From assembly GCA_018303655.1 (NCBI GenBank), contig JAGVXT010000023.1, positions 30,394 through 94,393 on the forward strand: a stretch of 64,000 nt of DNA, read 5' to 3'. The translations under genes and the position numbers were made by a program. The notes under the pieces are model-generated. The model did no database searches, was not told the DNA's origin, and was given only the letters and a program-made list of their open reading frames with translations. Source of the DNA: Candidatus Woesearchaeota archaeon. Lineage in GTDB: Archaea; Nanobdellota; Nanobdellia; Woesearchaeales; GW2011-AR4. Of the stretch, positions 9,938-39,528 are shown piece after piece. Position 1 is the first letter of the stretch. Each line of letters begins with the position of its first letter.

Positions 9938-9987
9938 TTATACTTCAAAGTTTTCAAAGAAAATAAAAACTTTGGAGGTTGATAAAA

Positions 9988-21350: not shown

Positions 21351-23720
21351 TCACAATTCCCCAACTTTTTGCTCAAGAATTCTTGCTATTTCCTTATATG
21401 GCTTGTTGGTTATTTCACTTGGGTCAATCAACTTCCCAAAAGTAACGCTTGTTTTTCCAAATTTAGGTATTGTTTTTCCTATTGGGAGGACTTCAAAGAG
21501 GCCTTTTAGCCTTACTGGCACTATGGGGATTTTCATGCTTGTTACTATAAGTCCCACTCCACTTTTAAATTCGTGTATTTTACCGTCCAATGTCCTCTTC
21601 CCTTCGGGGAAAAATATTACAGAAAATTTCCTGTCCATCATCTCACCCATAAAATCCATACTTTCATCTATTCCGATAGTGGCTCCAAATGGGAAGGCAT
21701 TATATGAAAAGATACTGTAGTAGCCCAGCATTTTTTTCAAATTCCTCTTAATAAATCCCTTGACTCCAATGCCAAATACAACCACGCCATCTGCTGCAAC
21801 TGCCAAAGGGATTTTAATGTGTTTAATCATTAAAGGCACATCGAATGCACTTTGGTGGTTGCTTACAAATATTACAGGATATTTTATGCCTTCGAGATTA
21901 TCAAGCCCAAAATATTGCGTTTTGGTAAAAAATCTGGCTATTGGAAAAACGAGCAACTTTTGGTAAACTTTCCTTAACACCTCAAACAATCTCGTAGTAG
22001 GCCAAGATCGGAACTTTATGCGATAAACAACTCTTTGGTTTGTGAGCTTTTCAAGATCAAAAACTGTTGTATTTTGGTCCAATTTCATTTCATCTATCTC
22101 GACATCAAAATGATTTTCCAGCTCTGTAATGAGTTCAATCCTCTTTAGAGAGTCCATGCCGATATCAACAAGATTGGAACTCTGGTTGATTTTTTTACCC
22201 GGCACGAGTATCTGATCTATGATTTTGAACAGTTTCTTTTCATACGAGAATTTTTCCAATGCTGCCCTATTGCTGCCTAGTTCCTTCATTAATATAAACT
22301 TTTTAACCTTGCCAGTTGGAGTTTTTGGAAATTCATTTTTCCAAACAGTATAACCTGCAATTTTCTGATGACTTAGCAATTTCTCATTCGCCTGCTTTAT
22401 TATTTCCTTAGGGTTTTTTCCCTCTTCAAGGATTAAGATTGCTTGCACTTTATTGTCTTTTTGGACAACACAGCTTTCCTTCACGCCATTTATTGAATTG
22501 AGTACAGGCTCTATGTCCGAGGGATATGCCTTCAAGCCGCTTGGGGTTATGATGATATCTTTCTTGCGCTCTTTAATGTAGAGGTAATCATCCTTTATCT
22601 CGCCGACGTCGCCTGTCTTAAACCACCCATTTTCAAAAGATGCCTTTGTTTTTTCTTTGTCGAGGTAGTAGCCTATTGAAATGTTGGCTCCCTTGACTAG
22701 AATCTCTTTGTCAGGACCAAGCTTGACGCTTATCCCATAGGCTATTTTGCCGGCACTTCCAGTTCTTGATGCGAAAGGCGCATTGATGCTGACAACAGCG
22801 GCTGTCTCTGTCAAACCATACCCTTGCAGCACAAAAATATATTTCCTCTTCCACCACTTTTCTACCTCGGGTTCCAGGGCAGCGCCTCCCACGCCTATAA
22901 TCCTAAATTGAATTCCAAGATTGCATGCAACACACTTGTCTTCCAAATGTTCTCTCAGATTTGCCAAAATTCCCGGCACAAAGATTGCTGCGTGGATTCT
23001 TTTGTTTCTTATAAGGGCAATCAATTTTCTAGGCTGTACCGTATCGGTAAAGAAAACGTTATAGCCAAAATGAAGAGGCAAAAACAAACCCATTATTTGT
23101 GCAAATATATGGCTTAGCGGCAGAACATTCAGAAATCTCAAGTGCAGCCTTATATTGATTGTTTTTACAGCAACCTGCACAGCCGTATAAATGTTGTCAT
23201 GGGTTAATATAACACCTTTTGGGTCTCCTGTTGTGCCAGAGGTGTATTGTATTTCAATGATATCATTTGGCTTAATTTCAGGATATGGGATTTCTTTAAA
23301 TACTCCATCGTCTAAGTGGTTTTCAAGCTCTTCCAAAAGATAGCTCTTTACATTTCTGATTGAATGATTGATGAATTCTCTTTGAAAAATTGCCTTTGCG
23401 TTAACCTGATTGTTTATTTTTTTAACGAGCTTTTTATCTGACATAACATCAAGCGGCACCACAATAATTCCAGACAGGATGCATGCCAAATATACTACAA
23501 CCCACTCTATTGAGCTGTATCCCAGAATTATTATTTTATCTCCTTTTTTTATTTTGTTATTGTCAAGAAAAATCCTTAGTTTTTGGATTTTTCCATGTAA
23601 CTCATTGCCGCTGACATGCCTTGTCCTATATCCTATTTTTTGGCTGTACAGCGTCCTTTGGGTGTTTGATGATATGGCTTTCAGAATAAGCTCTTGCAGA
23701 GGGGAAAGCTTTTGACTCAT
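21351..23720 (-). CDS. tri-domain protein: acyl-AMP ligase / carrier protein / PlsC-type acyltransferase
   Basis: Adenylation motifs YTSGTTGDPKG, GYGLTETA, WFKTGD, PKTPTGKVKK (aa ~60-480). Carrier motif GMDSLKRIEL with Ser523. Acyltransferase HX4D NHQSAFD (aa 621-627), FPEGKRT, IPIVPV. Confidence 0.85.
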   Translation of the reverse strand: MSQKLSPLQELILKAISSNTQRTLYSQKIGYRTRHVSGNELHGKIQKLRIFLDNNKIKKGDKIIILGYSSIEWVVVYLACILSGIIVVPLDVMSDKKLVKKINNQVNAKAIFQREFINHSIRNVKSYLLEELENHLDDGVFKEIPYPEIKPNDIIEIQYTSGTTGDPKGVILTHDNIYTAVQVAVKTINIRLHLRFLNVLPLSHIFAQIMGLFLPLHFGYNVFFTDTVQPRKLIALIRNKRIHAAIFVPGILANLREHLEDKCVACNLGIQFRIIGVGGAALEPEVEKWWKRKYIFVLQGYGLTETAAVVSINAPFASRTGSAGKIAYGISVKLGPDKEILVKGANISIGYYLDKEKTKASFENGWFKTGDVGEIKDDYLYIKERKKDIIITPSGLKAYPSDIEPVLNSINGVKESCVVQKDNKVQAILILEEGKNPKEIIKQANEKLLSHQKIAGYTVWKNEFPKTPTGKVKKFILMKELGSNRAALEKFSYEKKLFKIIDQILVPGKKINQSSNLVDIGMDSLKRIELITELENHFDVEIDEMKLDQNTTVFDLEKLTNQRVVYRIKFRSWPTTRLFEVLRKVYQKLLVFPIARFFTKTQYFGLDNLEGIKYPVIFVSNHQSAFDVPLMIKHIKIPLAVAADGVVVFGIGVKGFIKRNLKKMLGYYSIFSYNAFPFGATIGIDESMDFMGEMMDRKFSVIFFPEGKRTLDGKIHEFKSGVGLIVTSMKIPIVPVRLKGLFEVLPIGKTIPKFGKTSVTFGKLIDPSEITNKPYKEIARILEQKVGEL

Positions 23721-28449: not shown

Positions 28450-28713
28450 ATGCCTGAAGATGATAAAAAGTTCTCAAAGCAACTGATTGGAAAGACAGTT
28501 GTAAGCAAGACCGGAAAGAGGTTTGGAGAAGTTGGCGACATTATTTTTGAGACAAGAAGCGGAGAGCTGATTCACATGGTGCTTCACAACCCGACTTCCT
28601 ACACTGAAAAGCTTGAACTTGAAAAAGACAAGGAAGGCCACATACTGATTCCTTTCAGCGCAGTCATTGCAATAGGTGACTTTATGGTTGTTGCCGAAGA
28701 GGATATTATTTAG
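28450..28713 (+). CDS. PRC-barrel domain protein
   Basis: LIGKTVVSKTGKRFGEVGDIIFETRSGELIHMVL ... ILIPFSAVIAIGDFMVV. Confidence 0.7.
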   Translation: MPEDDKKFSKQLIGKTVVSKTGKRFGEVGDIIFETRSGELIHMVLHNPTSYTEKLELEKDKEGHILIPFSAVIAIGDFMVVAEEDII

Positions 28714-29290: not shown

Positions 29291-30253
29291 ATGGAACAAA
29301 ATAGCGCTCTGTGGACCGAGAAGTACAGGCCATCAGATTTCTCTGATATAAAAGGCCAGAAAGAGATAGTCAAAAGAGTCAAGGCTTTTGTGGAGCAGCA
29401 AAACCTGCCACACTTGCTTTTTGCAGGGCCTGCAGGTGTTGGAAAAACAAGTTTGTCTTTGGTGATAGCAAAAAAGCTATTCAAGGACCTATGGAGGCAG
29501 AATTTTCTTGAATTAAACGCTAGTGATGAAAGGGGAATTGACATAATAAGAAACAAGGTAAAAGACTTTGCAAGGACAAGGGCAATTGGAAATGTGCCGT
29601 TCAAGATAATTTATTTGGATGAATGTGATGCCCTGACAAGAGAGGCGCAGCAGGCATTGAGAAGGACAATGGAAAACTACACTCAAACGTGCAGGTTTGT
29701 TCTTTCTGCAAACTATTCATCAAAAATAATCGAGCCTATACAAAGCAGGTGCGTTGTCTTCAGGTTCAAGCAGCTGGATAAGAAAGATATCATAGAAATC
29801 ATTGAAAAAATCTCAAAGGATGAAAAATTAAAAATTGATGAAAAAGCCAAAGAAGCCTTGTATGAGATATGCGAAGGCGACTGCAGAAGGCTTGAAAACA
29901 TACTGCAAAGCTCGGCTGCAATAGCCGACCACATAACAGAAGATTTGATTCATTCAATGGCTTCTGTTGCCAAGCCAAAGGAGATAAAACAAGTTTTGGA
30001 GCTTGCATTAATCAATAATTTTATTGAAGCCAGAAACAAGCTGCTGGACTTGATGCTGAGCTATGGATTAGCGGGCATTGACATAATAAAGCAGATTCAA
30101 AAGGAGATATTGGAGCTAAACATTGACAACAAAGCCAAGATGATTCTCATAGAGAAGTGCGGTGAAATAGAGTTCAGAATGACAGAAGGATCTGATGAGT
30201 TTGTCCAGTTAGAGGCTTTGCTAAGCCAGTTTGCATTGGCCGGGAACAGCTAA
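29291..30253 (+). CDS. rfcS: replication factor C small subunit
   Basis: WTEKYRP, GPAGVGKT, YLDECDAL, SRC motif (IQSRCVVFRF). No intein. Confidence 0.9.
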   Translation: MEQNSALWTEKYRPSDFSDIKGQKEIVKRVKAFVEQQNLPHLLFAGPAGVGKTSLSLVIAKKLFKDLWRQNFLELNASDERGIDIIRNKVKDFARTRAIGNVPFKIIYLDECDALTREAQQALRRTMENYTQTCRFVLSANYSSKIIEPIQSRCVVFRFKQLDKKDIIEIIEKISKDEKLKIDEKAKEALYEICEGDCRRLENILQSSAAIADHITEDLIHSMASVAKPKEIKQVLELALINNFIEARNKLLDLMLSYGLAGIDIIKQIQKEILELNIDNKAKMILIEKCGEIEFRMTEGSDEFVQLEALLSQFALAGNS

Positions 30254-31296
30254 GAAGCAACTCCGCCTTCTGTTGCCAAATGCTTTACAAGAACCTTAGT
30301 TTCTTTATTGTCAAGGACATTATATAAAAGCCTTATGCCAACAGTTTTCTCCAAGTCAAGCCTGTCTGTTGCCAAGTCGGCTGTGCAGGTTATTGTTCTC
30401 TTGCCGCTTACTAATTTGACAACTCCCTTATGACCAGCATCTAGACCACCGCATTTGGGGTTTGAAAAAACCGGATCAACTGGCATCTCAAGGATTTCAA
30501 CGCCAACATTGCTTTCGCGCTCCCTTCTTGCCCTTGGGTCGCGAGGGCATCCAGTGTCAAAGCTGGATGGCTTGCTTTCCTGCTTGTCCCAGAATATGTC
30601 CACATTGCCGCTCAAGCTGATGTCAAAGCTGAAAGAAAGCTTGTCCTTACCTACCACAGTCTGCCTGAAATTGCTTACTTGCACAGGAGCTGCTGAGCTG
30701 TAGACTGTCCTGCTTGATGTAGGCTTGCAAAGGCTGTCGTCCCTTACATTTATCATATCCTTTAATACACAAACCTTTGTATTTGCCTCTGTCTTGTAAT
30801 GGTAGCAGGCATCTGCCCTGAAAGTGAATTCTGTGTTGCCGCTGAATTTTCTTGGATTAAAAAAGGCGCCTGTTCCGCCTTTTGGGAATGTCGCGAATGT
30901 TGTTGTACCATCCACAATGTTGCCCTCTGCATCCCTCTTTTTTGCATCCAAAAGGTCTTCTGGCTGCTGGTCTTTCAAGTCTTCAAAATTTTTGCCAAAA
31001 TCGTTTGGGTCAAATCCGACAAGGTTTAGCTTTATATCATTCTTTTCAACCTTTGCTTCACCATCATTTTTCAACCTTACAATCGCATTAAATGAAAATG
31101 ACTCATCATCAGTCACTTCTGGCGGTGGTGAGTCTTTCTCAAAATTTATTGTGATTCCTGATGTTCCTCCTATGAAAGGAGTTCTAGGAGCTCCTCCTGC
31201 AGACGCTCCGCTTTTTTTGCATGCAGAAACCAAAAGAATCAGGCAAATAAGCAATGCAACAGCATAATATCTCTTGTTCATATTGCCTCTTTTCAT
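30250..31296 (-). CDS. secreted lipobox protein, paralog 3 of unrecognised family
   Basis: Signal peptide ending in LLVSAC. Shares the motifs GITINF..SPP, RLKNDG, ACYHYKT..VCV, AAPVQVS, TITC and RLLYNV with the two upstream genes. Alternative ATG at 31281. Confidence 0.6.
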   Translation of the reverse strand: MKRGNMNKRYYAVALLICLILLVSACKKSGASAGGAPRTPFIGGTSGITINFEKDSPPPEVTDDESFSFNAIVRLKNDGEAKVEKNDIKLNLVGFDPNDFGKNFEDLKDQQPEDLLDAKKRDAEGNIVDGTTTFATFPKGGTGAFFNPRKFSGNTEFTFRADACYHYKTEANTKVCVLKDMINVRDDSLCKPTSSRTVYSSAAPVQVSNFRQTVVGKDKLSFSFDISLSGNVDIFWDKQESKPSSFDTGCPRDPRARRERESNVGVEILEMPVDPVFSNPKCGGLDAGHKGVVKLVSGKRTITCTADLATDRLDLEKTVGIRLLYNVLDNKETKVLVKHLATEGGVAS

Positions 31297-31343
31297 TGAG
31301 CTGTTTATTTTGATGTTGGTATATAAAGTTTTTGGTTTGATGG

Positions 31344-32423
31344 CTATTGAGGCCCGTACCATTCAGAAGAAGGTGAGCTAGTTGAAGGTGTTGACACACC
31401 ACTGCTTCCTCCCAACCCGCTTACTTCTTGCTTTATCTGAATTTTTTTTTCTATGCTGTTTCTGTAGATATATACTAAACTAATAGTCATCGGCGTTATA
31501 TATGCTGTTTTGCTTCCGTAATCTGAGCTTGGCAATTCACATATCACAAAGCCTTCTCCATTAATCAGCCTTACATCACCGCCCCTGCCTCTCGCGGCAC
31601 TGCCGCCTGTATCCGTGAATGGCCCGCATGTGAGCTCTTTGTTTCCTATTCTGACTTCCTGGAGATGTACCCTATCCACTTCTTCTCTTAATATTTTTTC
31701 GCCTGAAGGCCCGCATTTGTTAAGCATATCATACTTTATAACTTCGCCATTTCCTGCATTTTTAATCGTTATCTTAAATTGTGTTTTTGTTGCAAAGGCT
31801 TCTTCATCTATTTTTGTTATAGCTACAGGGGCGCCTTGGCTTGACAGGGAAATATCCTGCACTTGGCATACTTTCTTTTCATTTGTAGTTGAATAGGGAT
31901 TTGGATCTATGCATACTGACGGGCCGGCAACTGTCTGGTAGAAATAACAAGCTGTTGCAAGTAAAGTCGGCTCGTACTTATCCACATTTAAATTGTCGAC
32001 TTGGATAACACCTTTGAATGTTGCTATATCAAGGCCGCCATTTGGGTTTATAGTGCTTTTGCCTTCCAACGCCTTTCTGTTTGTATCTTGGATATTGGTG
32101 TCTCTGAAGTTTATAATGTTTGGATCATAACCACTTAAATAAATTTTACCATCTGGTGCTGTGCCTTCGTTTGGCTGGGGGAAGGCTCCTTTATTTCTCA
32201 TTTCCAAAACAACTTCAAAACTATTGGCATTTTCACCAGCCCCTTTTTCAACGTGTATTGTTGTGGGCGGCGCATTAGCCAGAAAATTCATAGTAATTCC
32301 TTCTGTTCCTGTTCTTATCTCCTCCAAGGATTTTTCGTTGCTTTTTTTGCCTTTGCACCCGGAAATCAGGATTAATAAAGCAATAAACAAGATAAAAACC
32401 AGCCTTTTTTTCAATTTTATCAC
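31344..32423 (-). CDS. secreted lipobox protein, paralog 2 of unrecognised family
   Basis: Signal peptide ending in LISGC. Motifs GITMNFLANAPP, EMRNKGA, ACYFYQT..VCID, KKVCQVQD, GAPVAITKI, VICE, SLVYIY. Ser/Gly-rich C-terminal tail. Confidence 0.6.
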   Translation of the reverse strand: MIKLKKRLVFILFIALLILISGCKGKKSNEKSLEEIRTGTEGITMNFLANAPPTTIHVEKGAGENANSFEVVLEMRNKGAFPQPNEGTAPDGKIYLSGYDPNIINFRDTNIQDTNRKALEGKSTINPNGGLDIATFKGVIQVDNLNVDKYEPTLLATACYFYQTVAGPSVCIDPNPYSTTNEKKVCQVQDISLSSQGAPVAITKIDEEAFATKTQFKITIKNAGNGEVIKYDMLNKCGPSGEKILREEVDRVHLQEVRIGNKELTCGPFTDTGGSAARGRGGDVRLINGEGFVICELPSSDYGSKTAYITPMTISLVYIYRNSIEKKIQIKQEVSGLGGSSGVSTPSTSSPSSEWYGPQ

Positions 32424-32462
32424 TCTTTGCTCAAAACTTGGTGTTTTTGTATATAAAACTTT

Positions 32463-33467
32463 TTATCTTGCTGTTTTTTGTGTTAAGTAACTGGCTGAGA
32501 TTGATTGTGTATATCCATAAGTCATGTCTATCCTGAGTGGCTTTAGAAACGGGTCCTGGTTGTTTTGGATTCCTTCCTTGAAAGCGCACCTTATAATGTC
32601 TTTTTTGTCTTTAAGTTTTACATAGCCTTGTTTTTCTTTGTTGCCTTTTTCTTTTGGCTCGCAGTCAAGCTCTTCTCCCAGACCTGTGCCTGGGAAAAAT
32701 GCCTTTACGGTTATTGTGTTGAACTTGTCGCTGCTTACTTTTCCCTGTGTGCAGAATTCTTTTACAGCATCGTTCTTTATAACAATGCCTGTTCCCTTAT
32801 TCTCAACATAAATCAAAAATTGGGGAGTTATTTTTCCGGAATCCTGGCTTGGAAGCATCTGGACTTCTATTTTGCTTATTGCAACCGGAGCGCCCTGGCC
32901 GTTTGCAAATGCCAAGTCCTGCAGTTTGCATACTTTTTTTCCAGGCCTTAAATTGTTTGGATCTGTGTCCATGCAGAATGTTGCATCTAATACAGTTTTG
33001 TAAGGATAGCATAATGTTGCAATTGCAGCTGAGCTGTGGAATTCGCTTTGGGGGTCAACTTTTCCTGCCACAAGATTGTAGCTTATAACTTCCTCTCCCC
33101 CTTTTTGGTTTATTATGCTTTTTCCCTCTATGCCAAAAGAAGCGATATTGTTAAGTCCTGAAAGCGGTTGCACATTTCCGCTCGTCAGCAATTCTATATT
33201 TTTAGTGTAATCCTTTTCAAATCCAATGGATATAAACGCTGCATTGCTTTTTATGTCGGCAGCCCCGGAATTTCTTACTTTTACCACAACAGGAAACTTG
33301 TCGCCTTCGAAAATTCTTTGAGGCGGGGTGTTCTTGAGGAACTCCATTTTTAGTCCATCAAAGCCTACTCTCACATCTATGTCCTGTGTCTTTTTAGTGG
33401 AGGTTCCTGTGCAGCTTATTATAAAAATAATCAATAACGAAGTTATAAGAATTGTTTTTTTGTGCAT
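32463..33467 (-). CDS. secreted lipobox protein, paralog 1 of unrecognised family
   Basis: Signal peptide ending in FIISC. Motifs GLKMEFLKNTPP, KVRNSGA, LCYPYKT..FCMD, KKVCKLQD, GAPVAISKI, IIRCA, DMTYGY. Confidence 0.6.
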   Translation of the reverse strand: MHKKTILITSLLIIFIISCTGTSTKKTQDIDVRVGFDGLKMEFLKNTPPQRIFEGDKFPVVVKVRNSGAADIKSNAAFISIGFEKDYTKNIELLTSGNVQPLSGLNNIASFGIEGKSIINQKGGEEVISYNLVAGKVDPQSEFHSSAAIATLCYPYKTVLDATFCMDTDPNNLRPGKKVCKLQDLAFANGQGAPVAISKIEVQMLPSQDSGKITPQFLIYVENKGTGIVIKNDAVKEFCTQGKVSSDKFNTITVKAFFPGTGLGEELDCEPKEKGNKEKQGYVKLKDKKDIIRCAFKEGIQNNQDPFLKPLRIDMTYGYTQSISASYLTQKTAR

Positions 33468-33482
33468 TTTTGAAAATTATGA

Positions 33483-36400
33483 TTATTTAGTCATGTATTC
33501 TTTTGTTCCAGAATATTGTCCTTCATTGTTATATGCATAAACAGTATAAGTATATGGTTTTCCTACTATTAATTTTAGTCCGCCGTAATCAAAACAATAA
33601 TTGCCTGAGCCATCTTCTTTGATATCCTGGCAGCCTTGTACAATAACCTCTGGTTCGTCTGCAGAAAATCTTGTAACATCATAACTAATTACCTTTGGAC
33701 TAGACGGTTTATCCCAGCGAATTGTAACCACTTGGGTTTGATAATCGTAAGAAGCACGCACAATTATGGGTGATATATCTGGAATATTCTGTGTGTCTGT
33801 TTGCCCACTTTCTGATTCAATGCGTATAAACTGTACATCTTCTTTAGATAGATAATCTCCAATACCTGATTTATCAATAATTACACCATTCTTAATCTTA
33901 TTGGCTGTGTCCAAAATTTTTTCAACATAGTTTATAGTGCCTTCTACACAGCCATTAAAGCATTTATTGTAATCTTTTGAATTTGCGCATGCCTTTTGAC
34001 ACTTCGCTTCTGGTCTGCATCCCCATCCATTATATGCTCTTAATGTGGCTTTTATGTCCCTGTAGCTTAAATATTTCTGATGCCTATCTTGATATTTCCA
34101 TTTGGGGCAGAATGGCTCAAGACTTGAAGAACTTATGCCTCCTTTAGATTTCTGATATTTTTCGTTTAATAATTTTAAGCCAACTTTTATATTGCACTCT
34201 TTATTATAAATAGTTTGTCCTTTAGTGCAAATAGTTGATAAACCTTCATGAATCTTATTTACCTGCATTACACCAACGCTAGTATCATCATAACTCGTTA
34301 AAATTTTATCAGGTCCACAAGAAGTATCCTCACTTGCTTTGCAATCACTCCAATGATTTTTACCGCTTTCTGCGCAGCAATGCCTCCATCTGCTTTCAGT
34401 AAGAGTCAATGCAGAGATTAAATCCATACTCAAACCTGGGAAGTAAATGTCTGTTCCTGGTTTGAATTCTATAGCAGACTTTGTAATCCAATCAGGGACC
34501 GTTTCCACTAATTGCACAGGAAGCTGCTCAACATTAACAGTCACAGAATTCTCGAGCAGATAGTTATATCTCGCCCTAACCCTGAAATACCTTGTTGTTA
34601 TTGGTGAATCACCAAGCACTGCCGAACTTGGCTCGAACCTGCACACAAAGCTTCTGGACTTGTCTATGTCCTTGTTTAAATCCTTGAACTGCTTGCTGCC
34701 GACATCAAGCGCATACGCATTGTATTTTTCTTGAGTAGAACCTTCTCCTTCATTGGTTTGGAACAAAAAAGCGCATTCTTGATTGCACTTATCAAAAACA
34801 GTTTGGCATTCCTTTATGCAATTGTTCTTATTTTCATCAGAGCCACCTACATTGCTACAAGCTACTGTACAAGGAACTACAACATTATTAGTACATGAGC
34901 CAAAACAATCAGTTAATTCATACTTCTTAAACGGCATGCTGCAGGGGCATTCCAATTTTTCCAATTCTGTTTTTGGGTCTTCACATTTTTCAAGCTTATC
35001 GGAAGTGCCAAGTGTAATTCCGTATGGCGTCAGTAAAATTAATTCTGTTATGTTTTTTATTTTTCCTTCCCATCTTGTGATAATTTTCTTATCTTTGTCC
35101 TGAATTTCCTTTCTGTTGGTTAGTGTAATGCCTATGATCGGCTTTATGGCATAGCCTTCGCTTACTGTAACAAGAGGACCTACGCCTAAGCCGATTTCAA
35201 CAGGCCCGTTTGTGAAAACTGCTGCAGGAGTCTTGTCTTTTATCCCAAATTGTGTCAATGGATCAATTCCCTCTCTTGAACTTGCCCTGAATCTTTCCCT
35301 GTCCATAAAGTATGTTTTCAGATAAGAATCGGTGCCAAAATTATACTCTGCTGATAATGTAACTATATTAGCTCCTGCTGGTATTTTGTTTTCATCTTTT
35401 GGCAGGAACGTGCATTGGGTGTCAACTTCCTCCAATGTGAATATTGGGAATTTTATTTCTGGTATTATCTTATCTGCATATATCCTTTTACTGTCTTTCC
35501 ATCTGCTGCAGTTGAAGCTCACAATTACTGCATCTTTGTATGTTTTGCTCCTTATAGTGCCCCACACAGTAATCGGCTCGTCAGTATAAAATCTTGGGTC
35601 AGAAGCCCTTATATTGCCGAAATAGACTCCAAGGCTTTCATATCTATTTTTTTCAACGTTGCCCCTGTACAGGCCTGCTGTGGCGATGTCAAGCCTGCCT
35701 TCAATGAACCCTTTTAGGTTGGCTGTAAATGAACTGTAAAACTCTGTGAATGTTGTACCTTGTTTTGCTATGTAGGGGATGGTATTTGTTTCAAGCCCTG
35801 CAACATTTACAGTCATTATTAAAAAAAATGTTACCAATAAAATAAATGCCATCACAGGATAAGTTGCTTTTTTCTTGCCATCAATTTCATTCGATTCTTT
35901 AACATAGCAATAGGGAATTACAAATAATGTAAGCGGTGGAATAAACTTCAAAAATAAATACTCAGAATTCCATAAAAACCCATACCCAAAAAAATCAATT
36001 ATCAGAAGACTGGGCATGTAGAGATATGTTAAATAAGGTTGTGTTCTTTCTTTTTGCTTTATATAAACAAATCCAAAAAAAATGATATATATTGCATGAA
36101 GCCATGCCCTTATGTTGCCCTGCCATCCATTATTGAGCCAAAAAAATGAAAAAACAAACATTGCATAAAGCGAAGAGAAAAGCCCCGCGACTTCACCCTC
36201 CTTATAGTTTCTATCAAATTTCCATACCAACCATCCTAAAAACAAAAAAAGCAAAATCATCCCATATTGACCTAATGGTATTGAAAAACTTATGTTTAAA
36301 TAAGATGGAAAAATTTTTGGAATGAAATAATTTGATATAATAATTATGCCAAATGCGAGTATAAAAGCTCTGTATTCTTTTTCTATTATTTTAAAAACCA

Positions 36401-37091
36401 TGTTAATATAAAACAATGCAAAAGTAAAACTAGAAGTTAGCACTGGCAGCAAACTTAAGGATAAAAGACCTAGTGGAGGTAATTCAAACCCCCTATATGG
36501 TGGCCAACCCGGTATAAGCCAAGCCGGTGCCATGTCTAGCAGCCAAATAGCAAGGACTCCTGCGATGAAAAATCTTGAAATTTCATTTTTAGTAAATCCT
36601 GTAACAAGCCCCCATCCAATGAAAATCACTATTATAATTATTGCTAGTAACCCTACTATTGTAATACCAACACCAAGCACAAAAGTACGAAACCCATAAA
36701 TATTCTTATAATACGCTGATATAAACAAAATCAACCCCAGTAAAAACCACGCCCAAAAAGTCTTGCTTTTAGCTGTGTTAATGGTGATTTCTGTTGCGCG
36801 GTTTATAAGTGCATCTTTTTTTTCATTTACTGTGTTTCTTGCTCCTTGAATTCTGCCGCCTAAAGTTTGCCTTTGCCTTTCTTCTTGCCGATCTTCTTCT
36901 TCAATCCTTCGTCTTTCTATTTCCTCTTGTCTTTCTCTTGCAGATTCTGCTCTTTCTCTGGCTGCTGCTTCAGCTTGTTCTCTTGATAAGGCAAGTCTTT
37001 CACGCTCTAAAGAAAGTCTTCTCCTTTCAGCTTCTGCTGCCTCAGCCGCTTCCCTTCTAGCTCTTTCTCCTGGGGTTTCACGACGTGCCAA
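33483..37091 (-). CDS. 1202-aa envelope protein: Arg/Glu coiled-coil, ~12 TM helices, paralog-like ectodomain with Cys-rich insert, SLT lytic transglycosylase domain, FN3
   Basis: TTG start 6 nt after a GGTGA Shine-Dalgarno, with no in-frame ATG nearby. SLT motifs LTESRW, GVMQVN and AYNGWG at about 34020-34440. The C-terminal ~95 aa look FN3-like (WDKPSSPKVISYDV...YTYTVYAYN). Confidence 0.7.
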   Translation of the reverse strand: MARRETPGERARREAAEAAEAERRRLSLERERLALSREQAEAAARERAESARERQEEIERRRIEEEDRQEERQRQTLGGRIQGARNTVNEKKDALINRATEITINTAKSKTFWAWFLLGLILFISAYYKNIYGFRTFVLGVGITIVGLLAIIIIVIFIGWGLVTGFTKNEISRFFIAGVLAIWLLDMAPAWLIPGWPPYRGFELPPLGLLSLSLLPVLTSSFTFALFYINMVFKIIEKEYRAFILAFGIIIISNYFIPKIFPSYLNISFSIPLGQYGMILLFLFLGWLVWKFDRNYKEGEVAGLFSSLYAMFVFSFFWLNNGWQGNIRAWLHAIYIIFFGFVYIKQKERTQPYLTYLYMPSLLIIDFFGYGFLWNSEYLFLKFIPPLTLFVIPYCYVKESNEIDGKKKATYPVMAFILLVTFFLIMTVNVAGLETNTIPYIAKQGTTFTEFYSSFTANLKGFIEGRLDIATAGLYRGNVEKNRYESLGVYFGNIRASDPRFYTDEPITVWGTIRSKTYKDAVIVSFNCSRWKDSKRIYADKIIPEIKFPIFTLEEVDTQCTFLPKDENKIPAGANIVTLSAEYNFGTDSYLKTYFMDRERFRASSREGIDPLTQFGIKDKTPAAVFTNGPVEIGLGVGPLVTVSEGYAIKPIIGITLTNRKEIQDKDKKIITRWEGKIKNITELILLTPYGITLGTSDKLEKCEDPKTELEKLECPCSMPFKKYELTDCFGSCTNNVVVPCTVACSNVGGSDENKNNCIKECQTVFDKCNQECAFLFQTNEGEGSTQEKYNAYALDVGSKQFKDLNKDIDKSRSFVCRFEPSSAVLGDSPITTRYFRVRARYNYLLENSVTVNVEQLPVQLVETVPDWITKSAIEFKPGTDIYFPGLSMDLISALTLTESRWRHCCAESGKNHWSDCKASEDTSCGPDKILTSYDDTSVGVMQVNKIHEGLSTICTKGQTIYNKECNIKVGLKLLNEKYQKSKGGISSSSLEPFCPKWKYQDRHQKYLSYRDIKATLRAYNGWGCRPEAKCQKACANSKDYNKCFNGCVEGTINYVEKILDTANKIKNGVIIDKSGIGDYLSKEDVQFIRIESESGQTDTQNIPDISPIIVRASYDYQTQVVTIRWDKPSSPKVISYDVTRFSADEPEVIVQGCQDIKEDGSGNYCFDYGGLKLIVGKPYTYTVYAYNNEGQYSGTKEYMTK

Positions 37092-37196
37092 TCAAAATCA
37101 CCATTTTAGCCATTTTCAAAATAACAATCTCTAAAGAATTCTTCCCAAGCCACCTCTTCTTTTTTAATGGATTATGAAATAAAATAAGCATTATAA

Positions 37197-38369
37197 TTAA
37201 GCCAGTTCTATCTTTAGTTCAACAACTTCCATGTCTTCCAGAGGCTCGAGCCTCAGGTAATTGTTGCCTTCTGAAATCCTGCTGTTGATGTTCTTTGAAA
37301 ATGCTGCCTTGTCTGTTTCTATGGTTTCAATGTGCCCGTTGACATCAAGCTTTGCCCTTTTCTGTTTGTTGTCATCTACAAGCTTGATTGTCAATACCGC
37401 ATCATCATTTCCATTTCTTATGCTTTGGAACGCATCGCTGCTTACCTCAAAGAAGTATGTCTTTACAGCAGGCTCTTTGAACTCAAGAGCAATTCTTATC
37501 TGCTCTACAGAGTAGCTGCCTTTGGATGTCTTGAAAACAATGTTGTTCTCGCCTTCGTTCAATGCGCTTTTCGGCACGCTCTGCCTGTAGGCATTGTCGC
37601 ATACAGGAACTGAGGAAAAGAGCTTTTTGTTGTTTATATAAATATCAAGCGTTCCAAGATCATTCACATTGCCGCAGTATGGTATGAACTTGAGTGTGGC
37701 TTTGTCCATGCTGGAAAATTCTGAATCGCTTAATGTAAAGAGGTTTGTGCTTTCCTGTTTGCTTGTGTCTGTGATGTCGCCGATTATCCTAACGTTCTCA
37801 AGGCTGTACTCATTTGTTGTCCAGAACTTTAAACCGACAGAAGAAACGCTGAACTCAAGCAAATTTGTCTTTTGAAGCAGTTTCTTGTCAAGCTTTACAG
37901 GCTCTATAATTTCGCTTGTTAATTCATTCTCAAAAACAATCACATTATTCAGCTTTATGGTCAAAATGCCTTCTCTTTTCTTTGCTGTGAAGGAAACAAC
38001 TACATTGTCTGTGTTGTCGGGGTCTTCAAGCCAGAAATCAATCTTCTTTGCTTTTTTGTCAAACCATCCGCTTCTTACAATGAAAGGGTTTATCTTTTCC
38101 ATCTCCTTTGCATTGGTTGTCTCCACCAAGAATATGTTCGGGATTTCTTTCTCGTCTTCTAAGTTGCTGGATGTGCTGAGCATTCCCGGAAATGCCTTTA
38201 ACAGCACATTAGATGTGTCTCCTCCTGAAGTTGTCTCTGTTGCCCTTTCTTCAATAAGCTTCTTTCTTTCAGAGCTTGGCAAAAATACAATATAAAGAAT
38301 GATCAAGCCGGCGATGATAGCGACTAAAACCGCTGCATTCATGCCTCCTTGTGACTTCTTATGCATCAT
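37197..38369 (-). CDS. N-terminally anchored surface protein with three internal beta-rich repeats
   Basis: MMHKKSQGG followed by a 22-aa hydrophobic helix (anchor or class-III-like signal). Three ~85-aa modules each end in an ENVRI / EQIRI / ELKIE-type strand. Confidence 0.55.
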   Translation of the reverse strand: MMHKKSQGGMNAAVLVAIIAGLIILYIVFLPSSERKKLIEERATETTSGGDTSNVLLKAFPGMLSTSSNLEDEKEIPNIFLVETTNAKEMEKINPFIVRSGWFDKKAKKIDFWLEDPDNTDNVVVSFTAKKREGILTIKLNNVIVFENELTSEIIEPVKLDKKLLQKTNLLEFSVSSVGLKFWTTNEYSLENVRIIGDITDTSKQESTNLFTLSDSEFSSMDKATLKFIPYCGNVNDLGTLDIYINNKKLFSSVPVCDNAYRQSVPKSALNEGENNIVFKTSKGSYSVEQIRIALEFKEPAVKTYFFEVSSDAFQSIRNGNDDAVLTIKLVDDNKQKRAKLDVNGHIETIETDKAAFSKNINSRISEGNNYLRLEPLEDMEVVELKIELA

Positions 38370-38454
38370 AGCACCTTTTTTAAATTGATTTTACTACAAT
38401 AATGTGAATAACTTAACATAAACATATTTAAATGTTTTTATTTTAGTGTTGTAT

Positions 38455-39528
38455 ATGAAACTGCTGCATTCCAACTTAAAGAAAGGGGAAGTAAAGGTAA
38501 TGACGCAAAACCTTGATGATTTGTGGTATTTGAGCGCTATTATAGAGCCAAAGGACATTGTACAGGGAAAGACCTTGAGGAAGATAAAAGCAGCTTCAAG
38601 CGATGAAAAATCAAAAGAAGCTTCAAAAAAGCCTGTCTTTATAAGGATTGAAGTAGAAAAGGTTGAGTTCAGCAAATACTCCAATGTGCTGCGCGTTCTC
38701 GGCATTATAAAGGAAGCTCCTGAGGAGGTTCCGCTTGGAGAGCATCATACATTCAATGTGGATGACAACACTGCAATCACAATAATAAAGCAGGACTGGC
38801 TCAAGTACCAGCTTGACAAGCTGAAAGATGCTTGCTCAGAGAAGAAAAGCTCATTGCTGATATGCGTGCATGACAGGGAAGAAGCGTATTTTGCATTGTT
38901 TAAGAAATATGGATATGAGATTTTGACGCATATGCAAGGCGAGGTTCAAAAGAAAAGGGAGGAGAATATAAAGAAAGAGAATTTTTATTTGATAATCATA
39001 AACAAGTTAAAAGAGTATGTCGAAAGATACAAAATAAAACAGGTTATCTTGGCATCTCCGTCATTCTGGAAAGAGGACTTGATGAAGGAATTGAAAGACA
39101 ATGAATTAAAACAAAAGATAATTCTCGCAACATGCTCCTCAGCAACAAAAAACGGCATTGACGAAGTTATAAAAAGGCCTGAGGTGAGGGAAGCTTTAAA
39201 ACAGGAAAGGACAGCTAAAGAGATAAATAAAGTTGAAGAATTGTTCACAGAAATTGCAAAAAACAACCTTGCTGTTTATGGACTGGAAGAAACGCAAAAG
39301 GCTGCTGAAATCGGCGCTGTAAAGGAGCTTTTGATAACAGATTCATTTATAATAAAATCCAGAAATGAAAATTTTTATAATAATGTAGAGCATATTATGA
39401 AAACTGCTGACAAGGCAAAGGGAGAGGTTGAGGTAATAAGCTCCGAGCACGAAGCCGGAAAAAAGCTTGATGGATTGGGAGGAATTGCCGCAATCTTGAG
39501 GTTTAAGCTGAATTATACTCACGGATAA
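38455..39528 (+). CDS. pelA: Pelota (Dom34) ribosome-rescue factor
   Basis: N-terminal DDLWYLSAIIEPKD, central and eRF1-like C-terminal domains (ILASPSFWKEDL, LAVYGLEETQKAAEIGAV..LLITD). Start set at the ATG at 38455. Confidence 0.85.
   Translation: MKLLHSNLKKGEVKVMTQNLDDLWYLSAIIEPKDIVQGKTLRKIKAASSDEKSKEASKKPVFIRIEVEKVEFSKYSNVLRVLGIIKEAPEEVPLGEHHTFNVDDNTAITIIKQDWLKYQLDKLKDACSEKKSSLLICVHDREEAYFALFKKYGYEILTHMQGEVQKKREENIKKENFYLIIINKLKEYVERYKIKQVILASPSFWKEDLMKELKDNELKQKIILATCSSATKNGIDEVIKRPEVREALKQERTAKEINKVEELFTEIAKNNLAVYGLEETQKAAEIGAVKELLITDSFIIKSRNENFYNNVEHIMKTADKAKGEVEVISSEHEAGKKLDGLGGIAAILRFKLNYTHG

What the first reader, a model, noticed from the sequence alone, without database searches (positions are those of the whole stretch)
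30250..38369. Five-gene envelope cluster built around a repeated unrecognised ectodomain: candidate undescribed surface or host-interface apparatus
What the sequence shows:
- Five co-directional, nearly contiguous minus-strand genes.
- Three of them (334, 359 and 370 aa) are clear paralogs. Each has a signal peptide ending in a lipobox-like Cys.
- They share ordered motifs: G-[IL]-x-[MI]-x-F-x3-4-PP; [RK]-N-x-G; [AL]-C-Y-x-Y-[KQ]-T ... [VF]-C; K-K-V-C-x-x-Q-D; G-A-P-V-A-I-[ST]-K-I; [IV]-x-C; and a terminal x-Y-x-Y strand.
- By eye, the ectodomain of the 1202-aa protein begins (LGVYFGNIRASDPRFYTDEPITVWGTIRSK) and ends (SFVCRFEP ... RYFRVRARYNY) with the same pattern. That makes four copies of the fold in the cluster.
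- The fifth gene encodes an anchored protein with three internal repeats.

I do not recognise the paralog domain as any named family. My inference is a dedicated cell-surface machine joining a membrane-embedded platform, a glycan-cleaving enzyme and accessory surface proteins. In a reduced, DPANN-like archaeon it could mediate attachment to, or penetration of, a host envelope.
Basis: partly seen in the sequence, partly recalled or inferred. Interest (0 to 1): 0.85.

Follow-up and report, generated by a model that had tools for sequence, protein, structure and literature searches.

The report
Conserved Woesearchaeota envelope gene cluster
Five neighbouring genes of a tiny DPANN (Woesearchaeota) archaeon encode membrane-tethered surface proteins of unnamed families that always occur together, and in this genome one of them carries an enzyme that cuts bacterial cell-wall sugar chains, so the set is a good but unproven candidate for the device these archaea use on bacterial cell walls.

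Summary
The five minus-strand genes exist as described. Three are true paralogs (BLASTP E 1e-32 to 1e-7), and each has a conserved lipobox. The claimed fourth copy in the 1202-aa protein D has only weak support: hhalign P≈0.004, limited to the last ~50 residues. The three repeats in E390 are marginal.

None of the five proteins matches a curated family, apart from D's C-terminal SLT (GH23) and fn3 domains. The AF2 model shows paralog B as tandem generic Ig-like β-sandwiches, and D's ectodomain as β-sandwich-rich.

The order E-D-C-B-A, between Pelota and RFC, is kept in all 31 species-level genomes found, nearly all labelled Woesearchaeota, and survives at ~25% identity.

New points:
- The wall-cutting head is optional and exchangeable: SLT, GH73 glucosaminidase, a Cys-rich tail, or nothing.
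- D's ectodomain core, E390 and A are nearly as conserved as housekeeping genes. D's membrane domain and distal parts evolve fast.
- N-glycosylation sequons are almost purged from the extracellular parts, except for two conserved sites on D.

Large SLT proteins of Woese- and Pacearchaeota are already published. I found no description of the cluster.

Best reading: a lineage-wide envelope complex that here displays a peptidoglycan-cleaving head aimed at bacterial walls. Function is inferred, not shown.

The parts
37197..38369 (-). Gene E (390 aa). A bitopic surface protein: short basic N-terminus, one near-invariant TM helix, then about 320 extracellular residues that look like three beta-rich, CBM-like repeats.
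   Evidence: ORF. 603 homologs, the 120 best at 67-100% identity, no Pfam domain. Invariant TM residues. Repeat test is marginal. Weak Pfam CBM-like and Sialidase_N hits, E 0.002-0.013.
38277..38339 (-). TM anchor of E390 (residues 11-31, NAAVLVAIIAGLIILYIVFLP).
   Evidence: Kyte-Doolittle peak of 3.08. N11, A12, A13, L15, I19-I23, Y26, F29-P31 are invariant in 35 orthologs.
33483..37091 (-). Gene D (1202 aa, TTG start). Polytopic platform protein with a modular C-terminus.
36807..37091 (-). D residues 1-95: cytoplasmic Arg/Glu/Ala-rich helical region.
   Evidence: R 23, E 21 and A 15 of the first 85 residues. AF2 predicts helix. The L038 homolog has an analogous AEAKAEKE coil. Only 29% mean identity.
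35742..36806 (-). D residues 96-450: membrane domain of about 11 predicted TM helices (my count; N-in, C-out).
   Evidence: 8 strong hydrophobic segments, plus weaker ones that I counted from the AF2 helices. 41% mean identity. Only about 5-6 TM helices in L036 and L038 by my reading of the sequences. No PDB fold match.
34506..35660 (-). D residues 478-862: conserved beta-sandwich ectodomain. Signature motifs YESLGVYF (484) and TNGPVEIG (627). It ends with ...RYFRVRARYNY.
   Evidence: 72-75% mean identity outside the insert. AF2 pLDDT about 80-90 and all-beta. Weak collinear similarity to the paralogs.
34722..35003 (-). D residues 697-790: Cys-rich insert holding a predicted long alpha-helical hairpin with four CX3C pairs (C729/733, C741/745, C758/762, C769/773).
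   Evidence: Cys positions. AF2 model helices 636-657 and 662-686, which correspond to D residues 726-747 and 752-776. Eight of these Cys are invariant. The insert is absent from the L036 and L038 homologs. Disulfide stapling is inferred.
35505..35513 (-). Conserved N-glycosylation sequon region on D (N527-C-S here; N525-F-S in 32 of 47 orthologs).
35046..35054 (-). Conserved sequon N680-I-T on D (40 of 47 orthologs).
33822..34505 (-). D residues 863-1090: Cys-rich SLT/GH23 lytic-transglycosylase domain. Catalytic-type Glu is E899 (codon 34395-34397, in LTLTES). Also S938-x-G-x-M-Q943 and A1019-Y-N-G-W-G.
   Evidence: Pfam SLT scores 20.9 bits against a 21.3 cutoff for this copy; 15 of 16 orthologous domains match, best 1.7e-19. 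Invariant E, S-G-MQ, N, Y. PDB profile hits to MltC, Slt70 and EmtA at E 0.004-0.1. Residue positions.
33486..33821 (-). D residues 1091-1202: C-terminal fibronectin type III domain.
   Evidence: PDB profile hit to fibronectin at 2.7e-6. Pfam fn3 E 0.011. Foldseek hit to the beta4-integrin FNIII domain, TMt 0.69.
32463..33467 (-). Gene C (334 aa): lipoprotein paralog (lipobox IISC19), tandem beta-sandwich.
31344..32423 (-). Gene B (359 aa): lipoprotein paralog (lipobox ISGC23). AF2 shows two tandem Ig-like beta-sandwiches. Six further conserved Cys.
   Evidence: AF2 pLDDT 87.2. Foldseek results.
30250..31281 (-). Gene A: lipoprotein paralog. The likely true product is 343 aa starting at MNKRYY (lipobox VSAC). 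The mechanical ORF extends to 31362.
   Evidence: 65-70% identity in the five loci, 25-86% across all 31 loci.
38370..38445 (.). Divergent intergenic region between gene E and Pelota, with an A/T-rich TATA-like element (TTTAAATA at 38425-38432) and GGTG just upstream of the E start codon.
   Evidence: Read directly from the sequence. No promoter test was possible for archaeal promoters.

Best explanation
The five genes encode one vertically inherited envelope complex that, as far as these searches reach, is confined to Woesearchaeota.

**Proposed anatomy**
- Membrane-proximal base: the conserved beta-sandwich ectodomain of polytopic protein D, the bitopic protein E390, and three lipid-anchored tandem Ig-like paralogs A, B and C.
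- D also links to the cytoplasm through a charged helix. At its distal C-terminus it displays a fast-evolving, exchangeable head.
- In this genome the head is a Cys-rich SLT/GH23 lytic transglycosylase plus an fn3 domain, mounted beyond a Cys-rich helical hairpin.

**Proposed action**
SLT and GH73, the two heads found at this position, are both peptidoglycan-glycan-cleaving families. I found no report of a murein wall in these archaea. The head therefore most likely acts outside the cell on bacterial peptidoglycan, either to open a partner's or prey's sacculus at a contact site or to harvest murein fragments.

**Shown**
- Gene set and paralogy.
- Lipoboxes and predicted topology.
- Conserved synteny.
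- SLT-motif integrity.
- Head modularity.
- The conservation gradient.
- Sequon avoidance.

**Inferred**
- Physical complex formation.
- Enzymatic activity.
- The bacterial target.
- The biological role.
For: 1. **Co-inheritance.** The order Pelota | E-D-C-B-A | RFC is found in all 31 GTDB-species loci and in further contigs. It persists where E, D, C and A are only 24-26% identical and Pelota 34%.
2. **All five are extracytoplasmic and membrane-tethered.**
   - Conserved lipoboxes. Lipoproteins are prevalent in DPANN (PMC12462473).
   - E390 has an invariant TM anchor.
   - By my count D has about 11 TM helices followed by a Cys-rich ectodomain.
3. **Conservation gradient.**
   - Conserved: E390 65-79%, A 65-70%, D ectodomain core 72-75%. 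Housekeeping genes for comparison: RFC 85-90%, Pelota 79-85%.
   - Variable: D TM domain 41%, hairpin 45%, SLT 35%, fn3 25%.
   - This fits a conserved interacting base with a variable exposed tip.
4. **The head is a real SLT.** E899-S, S-x-G-x-MQ and AYNGWG are invariant or nearly so. 15 of 16 orthologous domains hit PF01464, and PDB profile hits are to MltC, Slt70 and EmtA.
5. **Same slot, different heads.** The position holds GH73 glucosaminidase in other genomes (PF01832), a Cys-rich tail (L033) or nothing (L036, L038).
6. **N-X-S/T sequons are nearly absent from the extracellular parts.**
   - B: 1 observed vs 112 expected. A: 0 vs 47. C: 2 vs 52. E390 repeats: 2 vs 144. D distal parts: 5 vs 192.
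   - Not depleted: D TM region 60 vs 65; 147 ORFs without TM segments, ratio 0.92.
   - Two sequons on D are conserved.
   - This points to a surface complex under shared, unusual constraint.
7. **Not mobile.** No match in PHROGs (for A-D), PADLOC or IMG/VR.
8. **Independent proposals.** Published work proposes that large SLT proteins of these archaea target bacterial walls (PMC8204110, PMC9723730).
Against: - No experiment, expression data or structure of a complex exists. Complex formation is inferred from synteny alone.
- The hydrolase is missing from the most divergent clusters, so the core function is not peptidoglycan cleavage and remains unknown.
- High conservation of E390, A and the D ectodomain is not what an arms-race host interface usually shows.
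- No Woesearchaeote-bacterium pair has been cultured or imaged, to my knowledge.
- The window's own SLT domain scores just under Pfam's cutoff and carries unusual Cys-rich insertions. Activity and substrate (murein, pseudomurein or chitin-like glycans) are untested.
- The AF2 model of D has pTM 0.45, so domain arrangement is uncertain.
- I could not check these genomes for peptidoglycan-synthesis genes.
Confidence: 0.45

Rival explanations
1. A structural envelope layer of the archaeon itself, either a scaffold close to the membrane or an S-layer-like lattice made of tethered Ig-like modules. It would have no dedicated host role, and the SLT or GH73 head would be a late add-on for scavenging free murein.
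For: - Archaeal S-layers are generally built of Ig-like beta-sandwich domains and are membrane-anchored (general knowledge; reviews PMC5744192 and PMC12175726 were listed but not read).
- The cluster sits in a housekeeping context at a fixed locus.
- E390, A and the D ectodomain are close to housekeeping-level conservation.
- Clusters without a hydrolase exist.
Against: - There is no similarity to any known S-layer family.
- Archaeal S-layer proteins are typically glycosylated, whereas these proteins are almost purged of sequons.
- Five different subunits, one of them an 11-TM protein, is unusual for an S-layer, which is made of one or two proteins.
- Woesearchaeota metatranscriptomes already report separately annotated, highly expressed S-layer genes (PMC11606122).
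- There is no codon-usage sign of very high expression, though this genome shows no gradient at all.
Confidence: 0.25
2. A glycan capture-and-import locus, analogous to a polysaccharide utilisation locus. E390 and the lipoproteins would bind a glycan, D's head would cut it, and D's membrane domain would import the products.
For: - Tandem beta-sandwich lipoproteins next to a glycoside hydrolase resemble the SusE/F-type surface glycan-binding proteins of Bacteroidetes (my own knowledge).
- E390 gives weak CBM-like and CBM40 hits.
- D has a polytopic domain with conserved polar residues: D186, N254, N320, H332, D366.
- Murein-recycling enzymes are reported in the related Pacearchaeota (PMC11537232).
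Against: - D's membrane domain is the poorly conserved part (41% identity). By my reading it shrinks to about 5 TM helices in L036 and L038, which is unlike a transporter.
- It matches no transporter family or fold.
- No carbohydrate-binding family reaches significance.
- Clusters without a hydrolase exist.
Confidence: 0.15
3. Remodelling of the archaeon's own glycan cell wall or septum. This would be a divisome-like or elongasome-like complex whose hydrolase cleaves an endogenous murein-like polymer.
For: - A membrane-anchored lytic transglycosylase combined with a polytopic protein that has a cytoplasmic tail recalls bacterial wall-remodelling complexes (my own knowledge).
- Conservation is high and the genomic context is housekeeping.
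Against: - The literature I searched contains no report of murein or pseudomurein synthesis in Woesearchaeota.
- The hydrolase is dispensable or swapped across lineages, which is unlikely for an enzyme matched to an essential endogenous polymer.
Confidence: 0.07
4. A remnant of a mobile element, virus or conjugation system. In those systems a wall-piercing SLT is fused to a membrane protein, as in VirB1/VirB6-like or Gram-positive conjugative hydrolases, or in phage tail lysins.
For: SLT and fn3 domains fused to membrane segments occur in T4SS and phage proteins (my own knowledge). One ortholog tail hits Phage_lysozyme2 weakly.
Against: - The cluster is at the same chromosomal locus between Pelota and RFC in all 31 species found.
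- No ATPase, relaxase, integrase or capsid genes lie nearby.
- PHROGs and PADLOC are negative, apart from one weak unknown-function PHROG hit for E390.
- No IMG/VR contig carries the D signature.
- Base composition is native.
Confidence: 0.02

Closest known systems
Large extracellular SLT-domain proteins of Woesearchaeota and Pacearchaeota (protein family fam00969, Module 98; Castelle et al. 2021, PMC8204110; also Vigneron et al. 2022, PMC9723730)
   Same: Protein D is a large Woesearchaeal membrane and extracellular protein with a murein-type lytic transglycosylase domain. The published hypothesis, binding or degrading bacterial walls, is the same one reached here.
   Different: Those papers, as far as I read them, describe the SLT protein family only. 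They do not describe the fixed five-gene cluster, the paralogous lipoproteins, E390, the GH73 and head-less variants, or the sequon avoidance. I could not verify by sequence that D belongs to fam00969; the supplement search found nothing.
Bacterial family-1 lytic transglycosylases (GH23; Slt70, MltC, EmtA)
   Same: D's domain keeps the catalytic Glu-Ser motif, the S-x-G-x-MQ motif and the AYNxG motif. Profile searches hit MltC, Slt70 and EmtA.
   Different: Here the domain is fused to an approximately 11-TM archaeal protein and carries Cys-rich insertions (HCC..C..C). Sequence similarity is borderline (20.9 bits against a 21.3 cutoff for this copy). Activity is untested.
Peptidoglycan hydrolases of conjugation and type IV secretion systems fused to or paired with polytopic membrane proteins (VirB1/VirB6; Gram-positive PrgK- and TraG-type; from my own knowledge)
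   Same: Both combine membrane-embedded segments with a wall-piercing SLT displayed outside the cell. The functional analogy is local opening of a sacculus at a cell-cell contact.
   Different: There are no secretion ATPases, coupling proteins or relaxases, and the cluster is not on a mobile element. No sequence or fold similarity exists beyond the SLT domain.
Surface glycan-binding lipoproteins of Bacteroidetes Sus-like systems (SusE/SusF; from my own knowledge)
   Same: Both have several paralogous lipoproteins made of tandem beta-sandwich domains, encoded next to a glycoside hydrolase.
   Different: There is no SusC/SusD pair and no significant CBM family match, and this is an archaeal single-membrane envelope. 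This is analogy only.
Archaeal S-layer systems with membrane anchors (SlaA/SlaB of Sulfolobus, PMC10903991, title and abstract only; lipid-anchored Haloferax S-layer glycoprotein, from my own knowledge)
   Same: Ig-like beta-sandwich building blocks tethered to the membrane by a TM segment or lipid.
   Different: No homology. This system has five distinct subunits and near-total absence of glycosylation sequons, whereas S-layer proteins are typically glycoproteins.

Membership tests
SLT / GH23 lytic transglycosylase (Pfam PF01464) | Sequence match to the family profile above the curated cutoff | tested here: inconclusive
   The window's domain scores 20.9 bits against a cutoff of 21.3 (E 2.7e-4). 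15 of 16 orthologous domains match, best 1.7e-19. Several orthologs carry precomputed PF01464 hits.
SLT / GH23 lytic transglycosylase (Pfam PF01464) | Catalytic Glu in an E-S motif, plus the S/G-x-G-L/I-MQ and A-Y-N-x-G motifs | tested here: met
   E899-S900, S938-V-G-V-M-Q943 and A1019-Y-N-G-W-G. E, S, G, M, Q and Y are invariant, and N and W nearly so, in the alignment.
SLT / GH23 lytic transglycosylase (Pfam PF01464) | Cleavage of the MurNAc-GlcNAc bond of peptidoglycan with 1,6-anhydro product | not testable with these tools
   Needs a biochemical assay.
Fibronectin type III domain | Profile match and beta-sandwich fold at the C-terminus of D | tested here: met
   PDB profile hit at 2.7e-6. 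Foldseek hit 6hyf at TMt 0.69. Pfam for the single sequence gives only E 0.011.
Lipobox lipoproteins (archaeal AliA/AliB-dependent type) | N-terminal basic region and hydrophobic core, followed by [LVI][ASTVI][GAS]C | tested here: met
   LISGC23 (B), IIISC19 (C), LVSAC (A). Conserved in 17 of 17 A orthologs; 20 of 22 B and 24 of 25 C by regex, one B match being a false positive in a truncated ORF. The two B misses still show ...YGC and ...PGC, and the C miss is a truncated ORF.
Lipobox lipoproteins (archaeal AliA/AliB-dependent type) | Actual lipidation of the Cys | not testable with these tools
   Needs mass spectrometry or labelling. The prevalence of lipoproteins in DPANN is a prediction (PMC12462473).
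Known archaeal S-layer protein families | Homology to a described S-layer family or fold | tested here: not met
   No Pfam, NCBIfam or PDB match. Foldseek gives only generic Ig-like hits at TM 0.22 or less.
Known archaeal S-layer protein families | Glycoprotein with N-glycosylation sequons | tested here: not met
   Sequons are nearly absent: 1 vs 112 expected in B orthologs, 0 vs 47 in A, 2 vs 144 in the E390 repeats.
Archaeal type IV pilin-like proteins (class III signal peptide), considered for E390 | [KR]-[GA] cleavage motif immediately before the hydrophobic helix | tested here: not met
   The conserved N-terminus is K-K-A-Q-G-G-[ML]-N-A-A, with Gln or Gly rather than Lys or Arg before the Gly. 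There are no pilus ATPase or platform genes nearby. I compared it with the motif by eye only.
Type IV secretion or conjugative PG-hydrolase modules | Association with VirB4/VirD4-type ATPases and a mobile element | tested here: not met
   The flanks are housekeeping genes at a fixed locus in 31 species.
CARDB / DUF11-type Ig-like cell-adhesion domains, considered for A, B and C | Profile match | tested here: inconclusive
   C334 vs CARDB: E 0.14, 12.9 bits against a cutoff of 22.7. The best BFVD structural hit is a DUF11 protein at TM 0.20.
Paralog family itself: is the D ectodomain a fourth member? | Statistically supported alignment to the A/B/C profile | tested here: inconclusive
   hhalign P 0.004 over 48 C-terminal columns, above the reversed and shuffled controls, but HH probability is only 8% and HMMER scores are 7 bits or less. 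No structural superposition was possible.

The most novel reading that the evidence does not exclude
The cluster is the conserved base of a previously undescribed archaeal cell-contact machine. In this reading a glycan-free, five-protein platform is universal in Woesearchaeota, and different lineages have mounted interchangeable wall-breaching heads on it (GH23, GH73 or Cys-rich modules, on a Cys-rich helical stalk). It would be the physical device by which these uncultured DPANN archaea attach to and open bacterial partners, implying archaeon-on-bacterium episymbiosis or predation.
Probability: 0.25. Interest if true: 0.85.

Novelty: new variant of a known kind. Interest (0 to 1): 0.6.

Why it matters
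Woesearchaeota are among the most widespread uncultured archaea, and nobody knows who their partners are or how they contact them.

A five-gene envelope module found in every related genome located here gives concrete targets for antibodies, cryo-ET labelling, metaproteomics and heterologous assays. Its tip is a bacterial-wall-cutting enzyme in many lineages.

The exchangeable GH23 and GH73 heads are the strongest sequence-level hint so far that the target is bacterial peptidoglycan.

The three protein families involved are large and unnamed. The paralog family alone has 2,714 clusters at 50% identity.

The near-complete avoidance of N-glycosylation sequons, with two conserved exceptions, is an unusual and testable property of a surface complex.

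Tried and rejected
- **Curated libraries.** Pfam, NCBIfam, PHROGs and PADLOC scans of all five proteins found nothing significant apart from SLT and fn3 in D.
- **PDB sequence-profile searches.** The paralog and E390 profiles found nothing.
- **Foldseek, paralog B.** Against PDB and BFVD it returned only generic tandem Ig-like hits: pilins, integrin legs, transglutaminase barrels, DUF11. All had TM 0.22 or less.
- **Foldseek, D.** It returned only complement MG domains, transglutaminase and fn3, and nothing for the membrane domain.
- **Fusion partners.** Long relatives of the paralogs showed only fn3.
- **Codon adaptation.** I used the window's ribosomal-protein genes as reference, looking for an S-layer-like expression signal. 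This genome shows no gradient: all genes fall between 0.69 and 0.77.
- **E390 repeats.** The self-comparison was not significant as a whole.
- **Literature.**
  - The supplement search of PMC8204110 for fam00969 and Module 98 found nothing.
  - Searches for Woesearchaeota plus lipoprotein and cell surface, pseudomurein, peptidoglycan biosynthesis, or sequon depletion found no description of this cluster.
- **Viral contigs.** The scan for the D signature was negative, but it uses exact patterns only.
- **Archaeosortase-like or GT-C-like enzyme.** I considered this for D's membrane domain and rejected it. There was no profile or fold match, the candidate Cys and His residues are not kept, and the domain shrinks in L036 and L038.
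- **Genome-wide sequon test.** I could not tell whether sequon avoidance extends to the whole secretome, because too few other secreted proteins were in hand. One secreted protein in L029 has 10 sequons against 2.5 expected, which argues against a general purge.

Full report
**1. What is there**

The region 30250-38369 holds five minus-strand ORFs:
- E390 (37197-38369)
- D1202 (33483-37091, TTG start)
- C334 (32463-33467)
- B359 (31344-32423)
- A370 (30250-31362)

Gaps between genes are 15-105 nt. The block is bounded by a convergent RFC small-subunit gene (29291-30253) and a divergent Pelota gene (38446-39528).

The rest of the window is archaeal housekeeping: Hef-type helicase/nuclease, a primase with small- and large-subunit domains in one ORF, a proteasome-type AAA ATPase, PheRS, SecY and what look like ribosomal-protein genes at 55-63 kb. 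Every named best hit of the cluster proteins is labelled Candidatus Woesearchaeota or Nanoarchaeota. Base composition across the cluster is unremarkable.

**2. The paralogs**

- BLASTP among the five proteins gives B-C E 1e-32 (27% identity, full length), A-B 4e-16 and A-C 1e-7.
The lipobox Cys (C23) is invariant.
- Lipoboxes are present in essentially all orthologs recovered from 31 genomes.
- Gene A almost certainly starts at M28 (ATG at 31281). Every ortholog begins M-N-K-[KR]-Y-Y, and a TTTATATA box lies about 40 nt upstream.
- AlphaFold2 on B, using its alignment, gives a confident all-beta model (pLDDT 87.2, pTM 0.78) with two tandem beta-sandwiches.
- Foldseek against PDB and BFVD finds only generic tandem Ig-like matches at TM 0.22 or less: CfaB and FimA pilins, integrin alpha legs, transglutaminase barrels, a DUF11 protein.
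- Pfam, NCBIfam and PDB sequence searches find nothing.
- The family is large. A profile search of 1.84 billion representatives finds 2,714 clusters at E<1e-3 and 1,098 at E<1e-30, almost all 300-370 aa. The three sampled members that carry an organism label are Woesearchaeota hypotheticals. Longer members add only fn3.

**3. Protein D**

Sequence, alignment and an AF2 model of residues 91-1202 (pLDDT 77.9, pTM 0.45) give this architecture:

| Residues | Feature |
|---|---|
| 1-95 | Arg/Glu/Ala-rich cytoplasmic helix |
| 96-450 | about 11 TM helices (my count) |
| 478-862 | beta-sandwich ectodomain |
| 697-790 | Cys-rich insert within the ectodomain, holding a long helical hairpin with four CX3C pairs |
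| 863-1090 | Cys-rich SLT domain |
| 1091-1202 | fn3 domain |

- The SLT assignment is borderline for this copy: 20.9 bits against a cutoff of 21.3.
- It is secure at family level. 15 of 16 orthologous domains hit PF01464, best 1.7e-19.
- The catalytic-type E899-S, S-x-G-x-MQ and AYNGWG motifs are conserved.
- The profile hits MltC, Slt70 and EmtA in the PDB.
- fn3 is confirmed by a profile hit at 2.7e-6.
- No fold or profile match exists for the membrane domain or the ectodomain.

**4. Is D's ectodomain a fourth copy?**

- BLASTP and the first profile-profile comparisons were negative.
- I rebuilt broader profiles from the 31 genomes: 67 paralogs and 31 D ectodomains, including two that lack the Cys-rich insert.
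- hhalign then gave P=0.004 for 48 columns.
- A relaxed alignment is collinear and also pairs A-C-Y-x-Y-x-T with A-E-Y-N-F-x-T.
- The score exceeds the reversed control and 120 block shuffles.
- HMMER places the same segment in nearly every D ortholog, but at 7 bits or less.
- Verdict: suggestive remote homology of one segment, not a demonstrated fourth copy.

**5. E390**

- It has 603 homologs. The best 120 are 67-100% identical, and none carries a Pfam domain.
- Its TM helix (NAAxLVAIIAGLIILYIVFLP) is essentially invariant. This suggests specific helix-helix contacts within the membrane.
- Three beta-rich units share a ...G-x-L-x-I-x-[LI]-N... and ...L-x-E-G-x-N-x-[IL]... pattern by eye. Only units 1 and 2 approach significance (E 0.04).
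- Weak CBM-like and CBM40 Pfam hits are the only family hints.

**6. Synteny**

- In five contigs reached through homologs, and in all 31 loci from a scan of 185,579 species genomes, the order is Pelota (divergent) | E-D-C-B-A | RFC (convergent), often followed by a PRC-barrel gene and Cas4.
- This holds even in L038, where Pelota is 34% identical and E, D, C and A are 24-26% identical.
- Some records are titled 'uncultured Methanosarcinales archaeon' and one 'Aenigmatarchaeota'. Their flanking genes are 58-96% identical to the Woesearchaeota ones, so I treat those labels as doubtful.
- The scan uses exact peptide patterns, so absence elsewhere is not shown.

**7. The hydrolase is an optional, exchangeable head**

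- Orthologs of D carry SLT with fn3, SLT alone, a GH73 glucosaminidase (PF01832; for example L001, L003/L020, L031) or a Cys-rich tail with no enzyme (L033).
- In the two most divergent clusters D stops right after the ectodomain and also lacks the Cys-rich insert: L036 at 512 aa and L038 at 682 aa.
- The invariant core of the system is therefore E, D (membrane anchor plus ectodomain) and the three lipoproteins.
- SLT and GH73, the two enzymatic heads found, both cut the peptidoglycan glycan strand.

**8. Conservation gradient**

Identity to the window's proteins in the same genomes:

| Protein or region | Identity |
|---|---|
| RFC | 85-90% |
| Pelota | 79-85% |
| E390 | 65-79% |
| A | 65-70% |
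| B | 42-64% |
| C | 43-56% (67% over a half-length match in L003) |
| D overall | 32-51% |
| D ectodomain core | 72-75% |
| D Cys-rich insert | 45% |
| D TM domain | 41% |
| D SLT | 35% |
| D N-terminal helix | 29% |
| D fn3 | 25% |

This is a conserved base with a fast-evolving tip.

**9. Sequon avoidance (new observation)**

N-X(not P)-S/T is almost absent from the extracellular parts:

| Sequence set | Observed | Expected from composition |
|---|---|---|
| B orthologs, mature part | 1 | 112 |
| A orthologs | 0 | 47 |
| C orthologs | 2 | 52 |
| E390 repeats | 2 | 144 |
| D insert, ectodomain end, head and fn3 | 5 | 192 |
| D TM region (control) | 60 | 65 |
| D cytoplasmic N-terminus (control) | 8 | 11 |
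| 147 ORFs without TM segments, same loci (control) | 203 | 220 |

- The exception is two conserved sequons in D's ectodomain core: N680-I-T in 40 of 47 orthologs, and N525-F-S in 32 of 47 (N527-C-S in the window).
- One unrelated secreted protein in L029 is sequon-rich, with 10 against 2.5 expected.
- Orthologs are not independent samples, but the contrast within single proteins is hard to explain without selection.
- I read it as evidence that these organisms N-glycosylate surface proteins, and that this complex must stay unglycosylated except at two fixed sites.
- It also argues against a classical glycosylated S-layer.

**10. Interpretation**

The best-supported reading is a lineage-wide envelope complex with a conserved membrane-proximal base and a modular distal head. 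Here the head is a GH23 lytic transglycosylase. I found no report of a murein wall in these archaea, so the likely substrate is bacterial peptidoglycan, either at a cell-cell contact or as free wall material. This matches published proposals for the SLT proteins alone (PMC8204110, PMC9723730; cited in PMC12352652).

Steps that remain inferred:
- that the five proteins form a complex;
- that the head is active;
- that the target is bacterial;
- what the role is.

The core function in clusters without a head is unknown. Rivals, in order of likelihood:
1. A structural envelope layer.
2. A PUL-like capture-and-import system.
3. Remodelling of the cell's own wall.
4. A mobile-element remnant, which is effectively excluded.

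**11. Novelty**

The D-type SLT proteins are known in outline. In the searchable literature I found no description of the five-gene cluster, the lipoprotein and E390 families, the head modularity, the Cys-rich helical insert or the sequon avoidance. I rate it a new variant of a known kind (DPANN surface proteins that carry murein hydrolases). There is roughly a one-in-four chance that it is a genuinely new contact machine.

Noticed in passing
window 33486-38276 (extracellular parts of all five proteins) and their orthologs: N-glycosylation sequons are almost absent from the extracellular domains of all five proteins across dozens of orthologs. Two sequons on D are conserved (N680-I-T, and N525/527). 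Cytoplasmic and TM parts and control ORFs are not depleted.
   Followed up: partly
window 28450-28713 (+): An 87-aa PRC-barrel protein next to RFC is 90-100% identical across the Woesearchaeota loci, and 97-100% in all but one. RFC is only 79-94% and Pelota 34-96% in the same loci. That is unusually strong conservation for a small protein of unknown role.
   Followed up: no
window 21351-23720 (-): A 789-aa protein combines AMP-binding, phosphopantetheine-binding and acyltransferase domains. This looks to me like the bacterial Aas-type lysophospholipid acylation enzyme, a bacterial-style fatty-acid function in an archaeon.
   Followed up: no
window 6188-7537 (+): A single 449-aa ORF carries both primase small-subunit and large-subunit domains, so it appears to be a fused PriS-PriL primase.
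   Followed up: no
window 9979-11130 (+): A 383-aa ORF has a LAGLIDADG_3 homing-endonuclease-like domain.
   Followed up: no
window 52538-53041 (+): A 167-aa ORF has an N-terminus (…SSKKGVSPLIATVLLIAFAVALGSVV…) that looks like an archaeal class III (type IV pilin-like) signal peptide. It lies just upstream of a 248-aa two-TM ORF (53038-53784) and the SecY gene on the opposite strand.
   Followed up: no
L015 9526-12387: In one related genome the RFC gene matches in two pieces separated by about 1.9 kb. This suggests an intein or an inserted element in RFC.
   Followed up: no
L013, L015-L019, L021, L024, L026, L027, L034-L036 (record titles): Thirteen GTDB-representative records titled 'uncultured Methanosarcinales archaeon' carry this Woesearchaeota-type locus. 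Where flanking genes are present they are 58-96% identical to the Woesearchaeota ones. The organism labels look wrong.
   Followed up: partly
L028 and L037 (same MAG); many 4-8 kb contigs: Assemblies often break inside gene D. L037 ends in D's N-terminal part and L028 begins in its C-terminal part. This is consistent with population-level hypervariability of D.
   Followed up: no
L023 and L031 (both from MAG NC_groundwater_554): One MAG holds two versions of the cluster, one with a GH73-type D and one whose D has a 320-aa tail whose type I did not map. This could be strain mixture in the bin or a real duplication.
   Followed up: no
L038 8191-9675 and 9506-11068: In the most divergent, G+C-rich relative, the C-type paralog has a Cys-rich C-terminal extension and the B-type paralog carries a large insertion. 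The lipoproteins therefore also accrete modules.
   Followed up: no
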